NCBI GenBank assembly: GCA_000165345.1
Contig: CM000431.1
Location: forward strand, 448,001 to 512,000
DNA length: 64,000 nucleotides
Direction of reading: 5' to 3'
Shown one piece after another: positions 57,001-63,000 of the stretch (within the stretch, counting starts at the first letter, position 1; the number at the start of each line of letters is the position of its first letter). The position numbers were made by a program.

Positions 57001-60000
57001 CACAAGATCAAATTGAGATAGGGCCAGTTTTGATAGAAAGATTTAGTGGATGTTCTGAGAAAATCAAAGCAAAAGTTTCTAGTGAGTGGGAAAGCACTGA
57101 AAGTTTTGTAAAATACAAAGACAGTAATAAAAGGCAACGTTTGGAAGCATTCGAGGGAGATCCGAATATATTATACTCTCCAAATATTGGAAAGATTTCA
57201 TTGGGAGTTTCCTCTTCAAGCTCAGAGGGAGTGCCAACACAAGAAGTTTCCCAATGTATCTTGCCGCTACCTATTATACATCAAGGGCCAACGATTAATG
57301 CTAGCTCTAGGACTTCAAGCTTAAGATCCATCTCTAAGAACAATGATATTGAAGGTGATTTCGTATGCTTGAGCGAGATCAGACTTAGAAGAGATAAGAG
57401 GAGGAACCGTAGAAACTTTACAGAAAGTGATTATGATACATCCAGCGAGTGCTCTTCTGAAAGTAATAGTATTTCAGCCTTACTTGGGAGTTCAGGAACA
57501 AATGGAGGGAGGCAGTTTCTCAGAAACTTTACTCCTCCCGGGACCCCCAGTTATTCTATACAGAAAGTACCAGGGGTAATTGCACATCAGAACCACAATT
57601 TGAAGTCTCCGCGTTCTCCCACAATCACGTCTGGATTACAGCAAATAACTCTCCATTCAGATCAGCCAGGTTCGAACTCATTTACTCCCAAAGGGAGTCA
57701 TCTAATAAGATCGCCTGGAATTGTTCCTCAAGATCTGGAAGCGAGAACACAGTGTACTTGGGATGGAAGAGAAGCTATTGAACCCTCTATTGCCCCTCCG
57801 ATACCACCTATACCTACTATATCATCTATTTCATCAGTTTCTTCAAATTCATCTCATTCATCTTTTGGTGCTAGGCAGATTGAAAGATCAATTTCACAAT
57901 CCGTTTCTTTAGGAGAGCAGCAAATTTCGATTTCTGAAAGGATAGTTGACGATCAAAATATGCCTCCACCTACATATACTCCCAAAAAAAATAAGTTGGA
58001 TCGTTCAAATGAGAAGGGCGGGATACAACGGCAGTCATCAATAACATCGGTATCTATGGCAATATCTGCCTGTGAGGATTCTGACTTGAATTCAAGCCCA
58101 AAAGAAATTTTGAAAATGGCCAAAGATTTGCCTTCAGATTCTTACGAGGAGGATACTTTGTTCATTAGGTTTCCCCAGGATCAGGATATGGATGAAGAGA
58201 AGCTTAGAGGAATTCTTTTGGAACATTTTCTCATTCAAATTAGCCAGATAAGGATTGTTAGAGATCCCAAGGGAAAACCTAAAGGCTTTGCATATGTTGA
58301 TATTGAGCCGGAAAAGATTGATGAAATAATGAAGAATTCTGAGGAATTAAAAAGGTTAGAGGAAATTGGAATTCAGGTTAAAGCTTCCAATCCACCTAAA
58401 TCTCAGGCTCCGAGAAAGAGTTTATCATCCCGGGGGAATTCAAAGTATAAAAGGCAGACTAGAAGAAAGCAGGCACAAGATCAGCAGGATTCTAGTACGA
58501 CTATTCTTATTAAGAATATTGATAAAAGTTTGGATGAAAAACAGGTTATTTCTCATTTTCAGGATAGTCTTGGGCTCAAAGTGAAAAATATTAGCATTTC
58601 TAGAGACCAAAGTGGTGCATCTAAAGGATTTGCATTTATGGATTTCTTCGAATCAGGAGATGCTCTTGCTGCTCATATGCTTAATGAATCGAAGTTGGGC
58701 TCAAGCAGCATTACTGTCAGCTCTTCTACTCGTCCTTTAACATTCCCAAAATCAACAAATTCTGATGTTGGCTTAACTGACTCCCTGAATGCCAGATTTG
58801 TTCCTAGAACTAAGAGTAAGCAGAAACTTCCCTCTGGTCGTATAGGAATGAGAGGTAGAGAAAATAAGGTTAACACTTCTACCTTCCACGAGGACTTGGA
58901 GTTGGGAAATCAACATGAAACAGTGAATAAAGCTCCCTCTTTGACAAATGATGATTTCAGAAAACTATTTTTATAGGCAATAGGAATTTGGGAGATCAAA
59001 CTTAATTAGAAACTCAAAAAGTATATTTCAGGAGTAGGTAGTAGTTAATTATAACTTTGATATATAAATTAAAACCGAATCAAGTTCTATTTGTAGATTG
59101 CCTATTCATTTATACTGAAACGTGACGTCTATACAGACATTTTTGAAATTTGATGATCTAACATCAATTTCTTTCTTACGCTTGAGAGAAATTGAAAGAA
59201 AGCAGTCTCGGATCAACCATGTCTTGGAGGAAGTATCCCACTCTAGAAAGAATGTCCAAAGGTTCGAGTGGCTAGAGGTATGTATAAGAGCAGGATGAAG
59301 CCAGAAATGGGCCAATGCAACAGAAGAATTTGAGAAGCTGCGTCTAGAGGACCCCCATTCATTAATCTTTTTAATTGGGAATTCAACAATGTCTTTATAT
59401 GGTGAGTTCACTGCTGTAATTACATGATTAGAAAACTCCTTCTTGCGCTCCGGGTTTGAGAAATCTATGAGAGAGATGCTTCGGAGCATATGTGCGTTTT
59501 CTTCCTCTTCTTCAATTGGTTTAAGGCTTTCAATGGGATCATAAAGCAAACAGCTCATTTCTGTGGTTTCTGAGTCAACTTCACTTCTTTGATGCATAGA
59601 TTTTGGAGAAAGTGAATGTTTCTGGAGATGCCTCTGAGGAGATTCGTATCCAAAAATCTTTATAACAAACTCTCTCTCAATCCAAGGCTTTGGGCGGTCT
59701 TGAGCAGTTCTAGTGACTATATCTGGCGAAAATGGTTTAGTTTTAAGACTTGAAACAAGTTGTTCAATCTTAGATCTAGCGGAATAGATAAGTTGGCTTT
59801 GATCTTGACCAAAATAGCTCAAAGCTTGCTTATTAGATTCAGATTCTAGCAAAAAAAACTGATAACCTTCTCCTTTTGAATATAAAGATTGGCTTAAATG
59901 GGTACCTGCATGACGTGGATTCCAATCAAAGTTTGTGGTTAAGCCGCTATAAAGGTACTCTGCATCTCGATTATACTCAGAATGGAGGCAGATTTTCCAT

Positions 60001-63000
60001 TCAAAGATATCACTTATTTCTCTTTCTTTATTATTGACAACAATGGAGACTGGGAAAACATTGATAGGATGGATTAAACATTGTGGAAGATATATGCATT
60101 GGTCTCTAAGCAGTTCTGAAATCTTCCAATGCCTCTTTTCGCACTTTTGATTGACTCTTCTCAGTTCAGAATTGCAAATATTCCAATAGTATCCAGAACG
60201 GAAACCTCTTTGGAGATCTTCCCAAAAGAAGTTTGAGCCTCGTTTAATAACTGATTCTGGGAAGGTGTGTTTAAGAAGGAAGTTGAAGTAATGAACAAAT
60301 CTGATTTGGGATGGGTTCTTTATTGTTTTGACGCAACCTGGAAGACTGAGATCGGTTCTTCTATTAGAGTAGTACTCAAGAGCTTCTTCTAAGCTTGAAC
60401 AGAGTCTCGAATATAGTAACCAAGCAACCACGACGATTCCAGTTCTACCTTTACCACCTTTACAATGGATTGCCACTACGTTCTTACGATCGCTTACCAA
60501 GTAATTGAGAACAAGGAAGCAAATGATAAACAGAGATCCAAGAGTAGGAACTTGATGATCTGGAAATGGACAAGAAACAATACTATGGAAATAACTAAGA
60601 GAGTAGTGTTCTCGCTCATTACAGAGATTAATAATCATATGGTTGCGGGGATACTTTGTCATGAAAAAAGTTGAAACCTCTTCAATTGGATTTCTGTAAA
60701 TTGCTTCAATATTAATTGCTGGAAGTCCCATAGCGATCACTCTATCAGTAATATAAACCAAATCCAAACAATATTCTTCATTCGTATAGAAGCGTTTATT
60801 CTGACCAACTTGTTTTCGAAGAAAGACAGAAAGACGTTTCCAGTTGGCTGCATAGCCAAGAATTTTACCAAATCCAACAATATCTGTGCTAAGGCCCGTA
60901 ATACTCAGCATTCCAATGACTAAGTTCAGAAACAGCTCCACAGAATTCCTCATAATAATAGTCTCATCCTTCAATTTACCTGAAACCCCATATTTTGCCC
61001 TTAGAAGTTTACAAATATATACTAAAATAACCAATGAGTCATAAATACAGTAAACTGAGATGATTATTCCAATAGGAAAGTATATTTCTTGACAAAACCT
61101 ATTTAAAGCTGAGTTTTGTGTTTTGTTCATAAAAATAGCCAGAAAAATTGCCATATGCAAAATACATAAAAAAATAATAATCCAGTGGACTATTGGAGAA
61201 CTTGCAGCCCTAGATGCTCTATTCAGAAATGTCCCCACCCTTGAACTTGTACCATGGTCATTCACCTTGTTTTGCTCCAGTATGCAAAGCAAGTCTACGC
61301 TATTTCTCATTTTATCTTTGCTCTGCTCTGCTTCCTTAAGGCCAGATATCCAGGTTTTCGTATTCACTTGGCCTCATTATACGCTCTCAAGCATTCCAAT
61401 TTTCTTCCAACCCTAAGCCCTATAATTTTTTTCAAATTAACACGTCTATTGAGATTTTTCCAAAAATATATTATATTCCTATATTTGACGGAGTGCCGCC
61501 TAACATATTTTTTTTTATGCATGCGAAGTAATTATATACCGGTAAAAAATATTTGTGGGGAAAGTAAAAAAAATTCTGCATTTCATATTTATACGTCACT
61601 GCTATTATTTGACGTATTAAAAAAAGGAATGAAAACAGATTTTACTTTAAGAGCATTAATTTCCTGCAGATTTAATATATTCTAAGTGTGGATATCTCAA
61701 TATACTTCATAAGAATAATTTTCTTAAAAAAAAAATATTGCGAAAAATAAATAATTGCAAAATTTGCATTAGTAATGCATTTAGAGGCTAGACCTAAAGG
61801 TTTTATTTTTTTAAAGTACGCGTTAGCCATTCTTAAGACAGCATTTTGAGAGGAGCTATAGACGAGGTTATATCTATGCTTCTGCGAATGCTTAATGCTA
61901 CATTATGTAATATTACATAAGCCAGAGTGGTCTCAAATTTTAATTATTTTGTACAGCAATTTTAGGCGCCATACTTTACATAGCTATTATGAAATTATTG
62001 GTCCTCATGAAAAAATATGGTCAAATGGGCGGGAATTTCAGAATGTGATATAATGCTGAAGTGGGGAAATCATTAATAAAAGTTAAATTTTTTCTGTTTT
62101 TGCTGTTAGGAGTTAAATTTGAACATCGTTTTCATTCCAGTTAAATTGGGGAGCAAGTCAAGTTTAATTAGCAGGAAGTCGTTAGGGCTCACAGATAAAG
62201 AGTGATGACAGGTAACAATCCATATGGAGGCTACGACTTGGTGATAAGGGAGTTTGATCCTTCTGATAGCGATGGCGTAAGGCGCGTGTGTTTCAAACAC
62301 TTTCGCTCCTTGACATTCCCGTCAGTTTTCTTTTACTTGAGTCAGCATTTGGCGGATATGATAGCCTTGTTGGTGATTGGAAAAGTGTTTATGGACTTTA
62401 AGCAGCTGATTTCAATGCTGGTTTTATTTTGTGTCTATTTGACAGGTAGATCCATATGGGAGGTTGAAACTTATATTAGGAACTGTTGTACAGATTTGAG
62501 AAATGTGCATGAACTTTACATGATTTCTCCTGGATATCATTTTTGGGTTGCAGAGCTTGTCAAGAGGAGAAACTCCATTAGAAAGAGAAGGAGCATGGTT
62601 TTGGGGAGCGGGGGTGGAAGTAATTCGAGAGCAGAGGGCTTAGAACAAAATGATCATGCTTCAAAAAGTATTGAGTGTGAAGATACTCCAAGTAATAGGA
62701 TGGAGGGAGGCGAGTCCATCTTAGTCGGATGCGTCGGCCTAGCCCCATATAGAGATGATCCAAAGATAGGCCGTCTTGTTAGGCTAGTAGTTGGAGTTGA
62801 AAGCAGAAGAATGAGAATAGGAACAAGGTTGTTAGCTCAGATGGAAAATTTTGCAAAGGATTATGGATATAAGGAAATCCACTTATACACGAACAATTTG
62901 AGCACTTCACCAATTAAATTTATTAGCCAACATGGATACCAACTTGTTCAGGTAATTAGTAGAGGATTAATGAGAGGTGACTTATTGCTTTGGAGAAAGT

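What the first reader, a model, noticed from the sequence alone, without database searches (positions are those of the whole stretch)
59106..61367. Transmembrane PTEN-family phosphatase (TPTE/voltage-sensor-phosphatase-like architecture) in an apicomplexan-like genome
The catalytic core is unmistakably PTEN-like, with IHCKGGKGRTG, LDLVYITDRVIAMGLPA and NLCNEREHY. It is preceded by about 160 residues containing three strongly hydrophobic helices and a basic linker (WKRLSVFLRKQVGQNKRF) directly before the phosphatase. This resembles the phosphoinositide-binding linker of voltage-sensing phosphatases and of TPTE. About 400 aa of unknown function follow the C2 region. A membrane-tethered PI(3,4,5)P3/PI(3,4)P2 phosphatase would be a notable regulator of phosphoinositide signalling in a parasite. 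The fourth helix lacks a canonical R-x-x-R S4 periodicity, so true voltage sensing is doubtful.
Basis: partly seen in the sequence, partly recalled or inferred. Interest (0 to 1): 0.55.

Follow-up and report, generated by a model that had tools for sequence, protein, structure and literature searches.

The report
Cryptosporidium membrane-anchored PTEN/VSP-type lipid phosphatase
This is a real, already annotated Cryptosporidium parvum gene for a membrane-anchored PTEN-like lipid phosphatase that descends from voltage-sensing phosphatases but has lost nearly all of its voltage-sensing charges, so it is probably a permanently tethered enzyme rather than an electrical switch.

Summary
The ORF at 59106-61367 (-) exists and carries every quoted motif. 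From its first ATG (61310) it is identical to C. parvum EAK89108.1, annotated 'membrane bound phosphatase with 3 transmembrane domains'. The C. hominis orthologue has been named 'transmembrane phosphatase with tensin…' in GenBank, so the headline reading is already in public annotation. I found no paper on it.

The catalytic core is intact and closer to Ci-VSP/TPTE2 (E 1e-43) than to PTEN (3e-35). It has the VSP-type P-loop glycine.

The TM region models as a four-helix bundle, not three helices. Phylogeny places the protein with gregarine orthologues inside the VSD-bearing clade, and related sequences have recognisable VSDs. In Cryptosporidium, direct VSD evidence is weak (hhalign P~0.005-0.01, no Pfam hit, non-specific fold matches). 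S4 keeps a single invariant Lys, and the S2 charge-transfer Phe is Cys. Voltage gating is therefore unlikely.

The C2 domain runs to the last residue and is expanded about 2.5-fold by insertions.

Verdict: a charge-poor variant of the VSP/TPTE architecture, found in Cryptosporidium and gregarines. Interest is moderate to low.

The parts
59106..61310 (-). Complete single-exon CDS (734 aa plus stop) of the C. parvum membrane-bound PTEN/VSP-type phosphatase.
   Evidence: (exact match to EAK89108.1/QOY42538.1)
61197..61310 (-). Cytosolic N-terminal segment (aa 1-38) with an amphipathic pre-S1 helix (aa 24-36). Charge count is +5/-3.
   Evidence: AF2; charge count
61128..61196 (-). TM helix 1 (S1-like, aa 39-61). 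H42 is invariant in the genus and sits at the column where VSPs have Arg (47/54).
60987..61112 (-). TM helix 2 (S2-like, aa 67-108) with the invariant motif Y87-C88-x-Y90-D91. D91 aligns with the VSP S2 acidic residue (E/D in 54/54). C88 replaces the charge-transfer-centre Phe (F in 52/54 VSPs).
60897..60968 (-). TM helix 3 (S3-like, aa 115-138). E125 (Asp in C. muris) aligns with the conserved S3 Asp of VSPs (52/54).
60846..60887 (-). Short fourth helix (degenerate S4, aa 142-155, TDIVGFGKILGYAA). Only K149 is basic, and it is invariant in the genus. D143 and G146 occupy columns that are Arg in VSPs.
60786..60845 (-). Basic linker / phospholipid-binding-motif equivalent (aa 156-175, NWKRLSVFLRKQVGQNKRFY; +6 charge). 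It is continuous with S4. R165, K172 and R173 are conserved with VSP/PTEN, and F174 replaces the second Arg of NKRRY.
60261..60785 (-). PTEN/VSP-type Cys-based phosphatase domain (aa 176-350).
60546..60563 (-). WPD-loop equivalent PDHQVP (general-acid D251, H252). Both are invariant across the 68-sequence alignment.
60438..60467 (-). P-loop HCKGGKGRTG (C283 nucleophile, R289). It has the VSP-type Gly at the position that is Ala126 in PTEN.
   Evidence: PMC6182344
60306..60329 (-). TI/gating-loop equivalent KTIKNPSQ. K-N occupies the positions of PTEN T167-I168 and Ci-VSP E411-T412. Among the sequences sampled this dipeptide is specific to Cryptosporidium.
   Evidence: PMC6182344
59109..60260 (-). 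Expanded C2 domain (aa 351-734). Strand equivalents lie at about aa 377-386, 419-431, 436-447, 456-462, 518-530, 546-553, 665-678, 709-717 and 725-733. Lineage-specific insertions lie at about 360-376, 392-418, 463-517, 555-642 and 679-708.
   Evidence: Foldseek TM 0.75-0.79 normalised to whole Ci-VSP/PTEN cytoplasmic regions; alignment columns
59385..59648 (-). 88-aa insertion, predicted disordered and rich in Ser, Glu and Lys, at the position of the membrane-binding CBR3 loop of PTEN/VSP. Its C-terminal half (LRSISLIDFSNPERKK…NSPYKDIV) is conserved within the genus.
   Evidence: pLDDT below 50 over 560-620
59277..59318 (-). C2 strand motif ALAHFWLHPALIHT, equivalent to FYFWFNTSLV of VSP. W670 is nearly invariant across 68 sequences.

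Best explanation
The gene encodes a four-pass integral membrane phosphoinositide phosphatase of the PTEN/VSP (TPTE-type) lineage.

Anatomy, N- to C-terminus:
- a cytosolic amphipathic helix;
- a four-helix TM bundle that is a degenerate voltage-sensor domain;
- a basic linker helix equivalent to the phospholipid-binding motif of PTEN/Ci-VSP;
- an intact Cys-based phosphatase domain;
- a C2 domain enlarged by lineage-specific insertions.

How it most likely works. The bundle keeps one basic S4 residue (K149) and the S2/S3 acidic residues (D91, E125). It has lost the other gating arginines and the charge-transfer Phe. It therefore probably acts as a static anchor that holds the linker and active site against the cytosolic leaflet. 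That would make the enzyme constitutively membrane-engaged rather than voltage-gated.

Catalysis would use C283, R289 and D251 in a Lys/His-lined pocket typical of lipid-headgroup phosphatases. With a VSP-type P-loop Gly and an unusual KN 'TI loop', the substrate is most likely a 4,5- or 3-phosphorylated PIP, for example PI(4,5)P2 to PI4P, rather than classical PIP3 signalling.

Basis of each step:
- Shown by computation: gene, motifs, homology, fold, phylogenetic position, charge loss.
- Inferred: topology, static anchor role, substrate.
For: - Identity and annotation.
- Catalytic core: phmmer gives Ci-VSP 9e-44, VSP/TPTE2 2e-43 and PTEN 3e-35. The invariant columns D251, H252, H282, C283, G285, G286, K287, G288, R289, T290, G291 and Q335 hold across 68 sequences.
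- Phosphatase plus C2 fold: Foldseek gives Ci-VSP 3v0h E 3e-16 with TM(target) 0.75, and PTEN 7jul with TM 0.79, over about 580 query columns. Motifs are collinear to the last residue.
- Four helices: AF2 full-length pLDDT 79 and pTM 0.80. The N-terminus alone, with a Cryptosporidium-only MSA, gives pLDDT 73 and the same helices.
- Topology: basic residues cluster on the pre-S1 segment, the S2-S3 loop and the post-S4 segment.
- VSD descent, by phylogeny: the NJ tree of the phosphatase core groups Cryptosporidium with Lankesteria, P0014 and P0012 at 96.5% bootstrap. Adding P0021 gives 64.5%, and adding Digyalum and P0013 gives 82%. All sit inside the TM/HCKGGKGRTG clade and away from soluble PTENs.
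- VSD descent, by related sequences: the P0021 and Digyalum TM regions are VSDs (hhalign prob 96%, P 4e-9; Pfam Ion_trans E 1.7e-5 and 1.9e-4).
- Charge loss: D143, G146 and K149 versus R, R and R in VSPs, and C88 versus F. In one search, 115 of 146 TM-bearing relatives have at least three periodic S4 basic residues, whereas Cryptosporidium has one.
- Substrate determinants: PMC6182344; P-loop and TI-loop counts.
Against: - Direct sequence evidence that the Cryptosporidium TM region is a VSD is weak. hhalign probability is 5-8%, and no PF00520 hit appears even at E<=10.
- Foldseek finds nothing significant for the N-terminal model (best E 0.25).
- The fourth helix is only about 14 residues long and weakly hydrophobic. 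Public annotation counts 3 TM helices.
- No activity, localisation, topology or electrophysiology data exist, so the substrate assignment is inference only.
- One conserved S4 Lys plus conserved counter-charges could in principle still move in the field.
- The NJ tree is simple (173 columns, limited taxon sampling, no canonical animal PTEN), and the node joining P0021 has only 64.5% support.
Confidence: 0.72

Rival explanations
1. It is a functional voltage-sensing phosphatase. The four-helix bundle still senses membrane potential through K149 and its acidic partners, and switches the enzyme on and off as in Ci-VSP.
For: The overall VSP architecture and a linker continuous with S4 are kept. 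K149, D91 and E125 are invariant in the genus. The phosphatase core is nearest to VSPs.
Against: Only one basic S4 residue remains, against three to five in bona fide VSPs. The charge-transfer Phe is Cys. The gating-loop Glu (Ci-VSP E411) is Lys, and the second Arg of NKRRY is Phe. S4 is only about 14 residues long.
Confidence: 0.1
2. The TM region is an unrelated three-helix membrane anchor, as in the public annotation, acquired independently of VSDs. The weakly hydrophobic fourth segment is a peripheral amphipathic helix.
Against: A three-pass topology with a cytosolic phosphatase puts the strongly basic S2-S3 loop (+6/-2) outside, which goes against the positive-inside rule. AF2 packs four helices both with and without VSPs in the MSA. 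Phylogenetic bracketing by relatives with recognisable VSDs supports common descent. Conserved S2 acidic, S3 acidic and S4 basic residues fall in the VSD columns. The S4-linker stretch matches Selenidium closely by eye (sequences).
Confidence: 0.13
3. It is mainly a protein (dual-specificity or tyrosine) phosphatase, or a catalytically silent scaffold, rather than a lipid phosphatase.
For: Pfam reports only generic DSP/PTP families, and PTEN_C2 (PF10409) is not detected. The TI-loop dipeptide KN matches neither PTEN nor VSP.
Against: All PTEN/VSP lipid-pocket residues are kept: H252, K284, K287 and Q335, with the complete HCKGGKGRTG P-loop and D251. The PBM-like linker and a C2 domain packed as in PTEN/Ci-VSP argue for action at a membrane surface. 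Strong purifying conservation of catalytic residues from C. parvum to C. muris, at 37-40% overall identity, argues against a dead enzyme.
Confidence: 0.05

Closest known systems
Voltage-sensing phosphatases (Ci-VSP, Dr-VSP, vertebrate TPTE2/TPIP)
   Same: The domain order is the same: four-helix TM module, basic linker (…R…NKR.Y), PTEN-like phosphatase, C2. These are the best sequence matches (E 1e-43 to 1e-44). The P-loop HCKGGKGRTG with the VSP-type Gly is identical. S2 and S3 acidic residues are conserved. The cytoplasmic fold superposes with TM 0.75.
   Different: S4 keeps one Lys instead of three to five Arg. The S2 charge-transfer Phe is Cys. The gating-loop E-T pair is K-N, and NKRRY is NKRFY. 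The C2 domain is enlarged from about 150 to about 385 aa by insertions. No Ion_trans Pfam signal is found. Voltage dependence is therefore unlikely.
PTEN
   Same: It shares the catalytic mechanism residues, the N-terminal PBM-like basic motif, and a phosphatase-C2 unit (E 3e-35; Foldseek TM 0.79).
   Different: PTEN is soluble and is recruited to membranes reversibly. It has Ala126 and a TI loop, which determine 3-phosphatase specificity (PMC6182344). It also has a short C2 domain and a regulatory phospho-tail. The Cryptosporidium protein is an integral membrane protein with Gly and KN.
Human TPTE (hVSP2)
   Same: It has the same transmembrane-plus-PTEN-like architecture. The GenBank name of the C. 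hominis orthologue derives from it.
   Different: TPTE is reported to be catalytically inactive towards PIPs while retaining a VSD (PMC4322731). Here the situation is reversed: the catalytic site is intact and the voltage sensor is degenerate.
Gregarine orthologues (Lankesteria metandrocarpae P0017, Selenidium pygospionis P0135, Digyalum oweni P0132) and unnamed metagenome/transcriptome relatives P0012, P0014, P0021
   Same: They share the charge-poor S4 with a single basic residue, the VG.NKR linker, the AMGLPA motif and the WLH… C2 motif. Lankesteria, P0014 and P0012 group with Cryptosporidium at 96.5% bootstrap, and Digyalum joins at the wider 82% node. Selenidium P0135 was not in the tree, because the sequence is partial.
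   Different: Digyalum and P0021 still score as Ion_trans/VSD. Their C2 insertions differ. The KN TI-loop dipeptide is specific to Cryptosporidium.
S1-S4 'voltage-sensor-like domains' of TRP channels
   Same: These are four-helix TM bundles of VSD topology without gating charges. They dominate the non-significant Foldseek list for the N-terminal model.
   Different: No sequence relationship was shown. They are part of a pore-forming channel and are not linked to an enzyme.

Membership tests
PTEN-family (class I Cys-based PTP) phosphoinositide phosphatases | CX5R P-loop of the type HCK(A/G)GKGRTG | tested here: met
   HCKGGKGRTG at aa 282-291. H, C, G, G, K, G, R, T and G are invariant across 68 aligned sequences.
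PTEN-family (class I Cys-based PTP) phosphoinositide phosphatases | General-acid Asp plus His in the WPD-loop equivalent (PTEN D92/H93, numbering from my own knowledge) | tested here: met
   D251 and H252 (PDHQVP) are invariant columns.
PTEN-family (class I Cys-based PTP) phosphoinositide phosphatases | N-terminal basic phospholipid-binding motif directly before the phosphatase domain | tested here: met
   NWKRLSVFLRKQVGQNKRFY aligns with the Ci-VSP/TPTE2 linker. R165, K172 and R173 are conserved, and F174 replaces Arg.
PTEN-family (class I Cys-based PTP) phosphoinositide phosphatases | C2 domain packed against the phosphatase domain | tested here: met
   Foldseek TM normalised to the target is 0.75-0.79 for whole Ci-VSP/PTEN cytoplasmic regions. 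The phosphatase domain is only about half of each target, so this value needs C2 superposition as well. Motifs are collinear. Pfam PF10409 is not detected, and hhalign on the C-terminus alone gives only P 0.055, because of the insertions.
PTEN-family (class I Cys-based PTP) phosphoinositide phosphatases | Phosphoinositide phosphatase activity | not testable with these tools
   This needs an enzyme assay.
Voltage-sensing phosphatases (VSP) | S1-S4 voltage-sensor domain N-terminal to the linker | tested here: inconclusive
Voltage-sensing phosphatases (VSP) | S4 with three or more Arg/Lys at every third position (gating charges) | tested here: not met
   Only K149 is basic. D143 and G146 occupy Arg columns. 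The periodic count is 1-2 across the genus (1 in C. parvum), against at least 3 in 115 of 146 TM-bearing relatives.
Voltage-sensing phosphatases (VSP) | Charge-transfer centre: S2 Phe plus S2 acidic and S3 acidic residues | tested here: inconclusive
   The acidic residues are kept (D91, E125), but Phe is replaced by an invariant Cys88.
Voltage-sensing phosphatases (VSP) | P-loop Gly and E-T gating-loop pair associated with 5-phosphatase activity (PMC6182344) | tested here: inconclusive
   The Gly is present. The E-T pair is replaced by K-N.
Voltage-sensing phosphatases (VSP) | Depolarisation-activated catalysis and sensing currents | not testable with these tools
   This needs electrophysiology with PIP sensors.
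TPTE-type architecture (transmembrane phosphatase with tensin homology) | Multi-pass TM region fused to a PTEN-like phosphatase-C2 unit | tested here: met
   The same name is given in GenBank to the C. hominis and C. felis orthologues.

The most novel reading that the evidence does not exclude
Cryptosporidium and gregarines retain a VSP-derived enzyme whose voltage sensor has been converted into a charge-less regulatory or anchoring module. That module might respond to something other than voltage, such as lipid composition, pH through conserved His residues in S1, or a protein partner binding the large C2 insertions. The enzyme could also be the only PTEN-type catalytic phosphoinositide phosphatase in this branch of Apicomplexa, since a review lists only the formin-2 PTEN-C2-like domain for Plasmodium and Toxoplasma. 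In that case it would control a parasite-specific PIP pool at a specialised membrane.
Probability: 0.15. Interest if true: 0.6.

Novelty: new variant of a known kind. Interest (0 to 1): 0.35.

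Why it matters
For Cryptosporidium biology, this identifies an intact PTEN/VSP-type catalytic phosphoinositide phosphatase. The apicomplexan phosphoinositide review PMC10543664 lists only a formin-2 PTEN-C2-like domain for Plasmodium and Toxoplasma, so this is a lineage-restricted node of PIP metabolism shared with gregarines. It could be tested by tagging and knockout.

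For VSP biology, it is a natural example of the VSP scaffold with almost all gating charges removed while catalysis is kept. That is the mirror image of human TPTE. It could help separate the anchoring and orienting role of the VSD-linker from its voltage-coupling role.

The gene and its TPTE-like nature are already in public annotation, and nothing here overturns current understanding, so the importance is modest.

Tried and rejected
(1) Pfam on the full protein and on nine Cryptosporidium N-termini found no PTEN_C2 and no Ion_trans hit. Pfam therefore cannot settle either domain.

(2) hhalign of the Cryptosporidium TM region against the VSP VSD profile was collinear but not significant (prob 3.5-4.6%). 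hhalign of the C-terminal 392 aa against the VSP C2 matched only the FWLHPALIH motif (P 0.055).

(4) Two of the three homologous-protein searches returned only 3 hits each, possibly because low-complexity words filled the candidate list. These were the profile of apicomplexan-type sequences and Lankesteria alone. I therefore could not do a named survey of coccidian or haemosporidian homologues. Absence there rests on the first search's top 120, the representative search and the review table.

(5) The top non-Cryptosporidium hits of the representative search (P0128-P0131, P0133, P0134) looked like closer relatives. They proved to be soluble tandem double-PTEN proteins whose scores are inflated by two domains, so I rejected them as orthologues.

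(6) The afdb50 fold library was unavailable.

(7) Literature searches for Cryptosporidium with PTEN, TPTE, voltage-sensing phosphatase or 'membrane bound phosphatase' found no study of this gene.

(8) I considered a pseudo-phosphatase reading and rejected it because every catalytic residue is conserved.

Full report
**1. Observation**

The window is AT-rich (25-40% GC). It contains all four quoted strings.

The first ATG is codon 20 (nt 61310; upstream sequence). The 734-aa protein from that ATG is identical to GenBank EAK89108.1 / QOY42538.1 of Cryptosporidium parvum, named 'membrane bound phosphatase with 3 transmembrane domains and a dual specificity…'.

Its 90%-identity cluster includes C. 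hominis XP_668668.1, named 'transmembrane phosphatase with tensin y isoform C'. More distant orthologues occur in C. meleagridis, ubiquitum, canis, felis ('TPTE2-like') and muris, down to 37% identity. All residue numbers below use the 734-aa numbering. Window coordinates of each part were checked by translation.

**2. Catalytic core**

Pfam sees only generic DSP/PTP families (best PF22785, 35 bits), with no PTEN_C2 and no Ion_trans.

phmmer against PDB sequences is unambiguous:

| Target | E-value | Query range |
|---|---|---|
| Ci-VSP | 9e-44 | 753-numbering 177-366 |
| 9c49 VSP/TPTE2 | 2e-43 | from query residue 167, i.e. from inside the fourth helix |
| PTEN | 3e-35 | |
| auxilin | 1e-18 | |

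In a 68-sequence alignment the following are invariant: N171, D251, H252, H282, C283, G285, G286, K287, G288, R289, T290, G291, R318, Q335 and R337.

The P-loop is HCKGGKGRTG. That is the VSP type, found in 124 of 128 related domains sampled. The three soluble PTEN-type domains have HCKAGKGRTG.

The 'TI/gating loop' dipeptide is K-N, whereas PTEN has T-I and VSPs have E-T. KN occurs only in the Cryptosporidium sequences. According to PMC6182344, PTEN A126 and TI167/168 versus the VSP Gly and ET are the main determinants of D3 versus D5 specificity. Cryptosporidium is therefore a hybrid (Gly plus a novel pair), and its regiospecificity cannot be read from sequence.

**3. The C-terminal 385 residues are an expanded C2 domain**

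AlphaFold2 on the 68-sequence alignment gave mean pLDDT 79 and pTM 0.80. Only aa 560-660 were poorly predicted.

Foldseek against the PDB aligns the complete cytoplasmic regions of Ci-VSP (3v0h, E 3e-16, TM normalised to target 0.75) and PTEN (7jul, TM 0.79) over about 580 query columns. The phosphatase domain is only about half of those targets, so such TM values require the C2 domain to superpose as well.

The alignment columns agree:

| Cryptosporidium | VSP equivalent |
|---|---|
| EFVIKIF | DIKVRFTS |
| EFPIKKIN | TLPRGYDN |
| ALAHFWLHPALIH | CPFYFWFNTSLVE (W670 in ≥90% of 68 sequences) |
| KKEID | REELD (D716) |
| VCIDVTFQYK | FSVKLLF (F731) |

VSP residues are absent opposite aa ~360-376, 392-418, 463-517, 555-642 and 679-708. 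These are insertions. The largest (555-642) sits at the position of the CBR3 loop and is predicted to be disordered. The structured insertions carry many genus-invariant aromatic residues.

Profile-profile comparison of the C-terminus alone is not significant (P 0.055). This part therefore rests on the fold match and on collinearity.

**4. The TM region**

Hydropathy gives three strong peaks and a weak fourth segment.

Two AF2 runs give the same helices: 24-36 (amphipathic), 39-61, 67-108, 115-138, 142-155 and 157-169/175. One run used the 68-sequence alignment. The other used the N-terminus alone with a Cryptosporidium-only MSA, to avoid importing VSD information (pLDDT 73, pTM 0.67).

Basic residues concentrate before helix 1 (+5/-3), between helices 2 and 3 (+6/-2) and after helix 4 (+6/0). 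The other two loops carry +2/-1 and 0 (my count). A four-pass N-in/C-in topology obeys the positive-inside rule. A three-pass topology with a cytosolic phosphatase does not. This step is inference.

**5. Is the bundle a voltage-sensor domain?**

Direct evidence is weak.
- hhalign of the Cryptosporidium TM profile (linker removed) against a VSP VSD profile gives P 0.009 over 78 collinear columns.
- Against P0021 it gives P 0.0045 over 102 collinear columns.
- Reversed-sequence controls give 0.38-0.74.
- Pfam finds no Ion_trans hit at E<=10.
- Foldseek has no significant hit. Its list is mostly TRPV S1-S4 domains, Nav1.7-VSD4 and KvAP VSD.

Indirect evidence is stronger. A full HMMER scan of 1.84 billion representatives with the Cryptosporidium profile and name look-ups recover relatives from three gregarines: Lankesteria metandrocarpae, Selenidium pygospionis and Digyalum oweni (taxonomy). 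They also recover the unnamed P0012, P0014 and P0021.

An NJ tree of the phosphatase core (173 columns, 200 bootstraps) gives these nested clades:

| Clade | Bootstrap |
|---|---|
| Cryptosporidium | 100% |
| + Lankesteria, P0014, P0012 | 96.5% |
| + P0021 | 64.5% |
| + Digyalum and protist P0013 | 82% |

All of these sit inside the TM-bearing HCKGGKGRTG clade, away from soluble PTEN-type domains. P0013 has an arginine-rich S4.

The TM regions of Digyalum plus P0021 are clearly VSDs. hhalign against the VSP VSD gives prob 96% and P 4e-9, and Pfam Ion_trans gives E 1.7e-5 and 1.9e-4, just under the gathering score.

In the 68-sequence alignment the genus-invariant residues fall in the diagnostic VSD columns:
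- D91 aligns with the S2 acidic residue (E/D in 54/54 VSPs).
- E125 aligns with the S3 Asp (52/54).
- K149 aligns with an S4 Arg (54/54).

I conclude, at about 0.8 probability, that the bundle is a degenerate VSD inherited from a VSP-like ancestor.

**6. Loss of the sensor**

In the same alignment, the columns that are Arg in VSPs are D143 (Arg in 51/54) and G146 (Arg in 32/54). Only K149 remains. Depending on gap placement, K149 corresponds to one of the two innermost S4 arginines of Ci-VSP (numbering from my own knowledge).

The S2 Phe three residues before the acidic residue, which is the charge-transfer-centre position, is F in 52/54 VSPs and C88 in all Cryptosporidium. F174 replaces the second Arg of NKRRY, which is R in 54/54.

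Among 146 TM-bearing relatives, 115 have at least three basic residues in i, i+3 register in S4. Cryptosporidium species have one or two (C. parvum one), as do the gregarines. A second, unrelated charge-poor group also exists, including Paulinella micropora.

**7. Mechanism proposed**

Shown by computation:
- an intact PTEN/VSP catalytic site;
- a basic linker continuous with the fourth helix;
- a C2 domain packed as in PTEN/Ci-VSP;
- a four-helix TM bundle with a single conserved internal Lys and two conserved acidic residues.

Inferred:
- The bundle is a fixed anchor, possibly locked by K149-D91/E125 pairing. It holds the linker and active site on the cytosolic leaflet and gives constitutive membrane engagement.
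- Any regulation is more likely to come through lipid binding at the linker, or through the large, partly disordered, Ser-rich C2 insertions.
- Substrate. The review PMC10543664 lists class I PI3K as not found, and 'PTEN' only as the formin-2 accessory domain, in Plasmodium and Toxoplasma. PIP3 may therefore be scarce in apicomplexans. PI(4,5)P2, PI(3,4)P2, PI(3,5)P2 or PI3P are more plausible substrates. This is low-confidence inference.

**8. Comparison and novelty**

The protein works like, and descends from, the VSP/TPTE family. It meets the defining features of PTEN-family lipid phosphatases and of the TPTE-type architecture. It fails the defining VSP feature of an arginine-bearing S4.

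It is the mirror image of human TPTE, which has an inactive enzyme and a retained VSD (PMC4322731).

The gene and its TPTE-like character are already in GenBank names. I found no publication on it or on apicomplexan VSP-like proteins in the searchable library.

What this analysis adds:
- the four-helix/VSD-descent reading;
- quantified charge loss;
- the gregarine orthologues;
- the re-interpretation of the C-terminal half as an expanded C2 domain.

I rate it a new variant of a known kind, with moderate-to-low interest (0.35).

**9. Limits**

- No coordinates of the models were available for contact analysis.
- Two homologue searches returned almost nothing, and the AFDB library was unavailable. 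Absence from coccidia and haemosporidia is therefore supported only indirectly.
- The tree is a simple NJ analysis with limited sampling.

Noticed in passing
window 55566-58976 (+): This 1136-aa ORF has N-terminal HAT repeats (Suf/Syf1/PRP39-type hits), a long Ser-rich middle and an RRM at aa 980-1049. That looks like a SART3/Prp24-type splicing factor. It converges tail-to-tail on the phosphatase gene with about 130 nt between the stop codons.
   Followed up: partly
window 62202-63080 (+): This 292-aa ORF has a C-terminal GNAT acetyltransferase domain (PF00583, 2.8e-9) preceded by hydrophobic segments, so it is possibly a membrane-associated N-acetyltransferase.
   Followed up: partly
window 63114-63983 (-): This 289-aa ORF has no Pfam hit at E<=0.001.
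   Followed up: partly
window 1-30000 versus 30001-64000: GC content is mostly lower in the first ~30 kb (about 25-35%) than in the second half (about 30-40%). The cause was not examined.
   Followed up: no
window 61310-61367 (-): C. hominis and C. meleagridis orthologues are annotated 13 aa longer (747 aa, starting MSDLKK…). C. parvum has no ATG in the corresponding in-frame upstream stretch and is annotated from the internal Met (734 aa).
   Followed up: partly
P0128-P0131, P0133, P0134 (representative-search hits; e.g. Amorphochlora amoebiformis GAB5368944.1): These are soluble proteins with two tandem complete PTEN (phosphatase plus C2) units in one polypeptide, from protists and metagenomes. 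They outrank true relatives in profile searches because both units score.
   Followed up: partly
P0010 (Cryptomonas curvata, 1269 aa): This protein has a VSD-like region followed by a phosphatase domain with a degenerate P-loop (HCKSGRDRTG), then a second PTEN-type phosphatase-C2 unit. It is an unusual double arrangement.
   Followed up: no
P0016, P0024 (Paulinella micropora), P0045, P0090, P0091, P0151, P0158: This second, non-apicomplexan group of TM PTEN/VSP-like proteins also has only one or two basic residues in S4 and long C2 insertions. The four members included in the tree form their own clade. Loss of gating charges in VSP-like proteins therefore seems to be recurrent in protists.
   Followed up: partly
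P0015 (Monosiga brevicollis MONBRDRAFT_31118, 934 aa): The VSP in this gene model is flanked by an amidohydrolase-like N-terminal region (precomputed PF04909) and a C-terminal LIM domain (precomputed PF00412). This may be a fused gene model.
   Followed up: no
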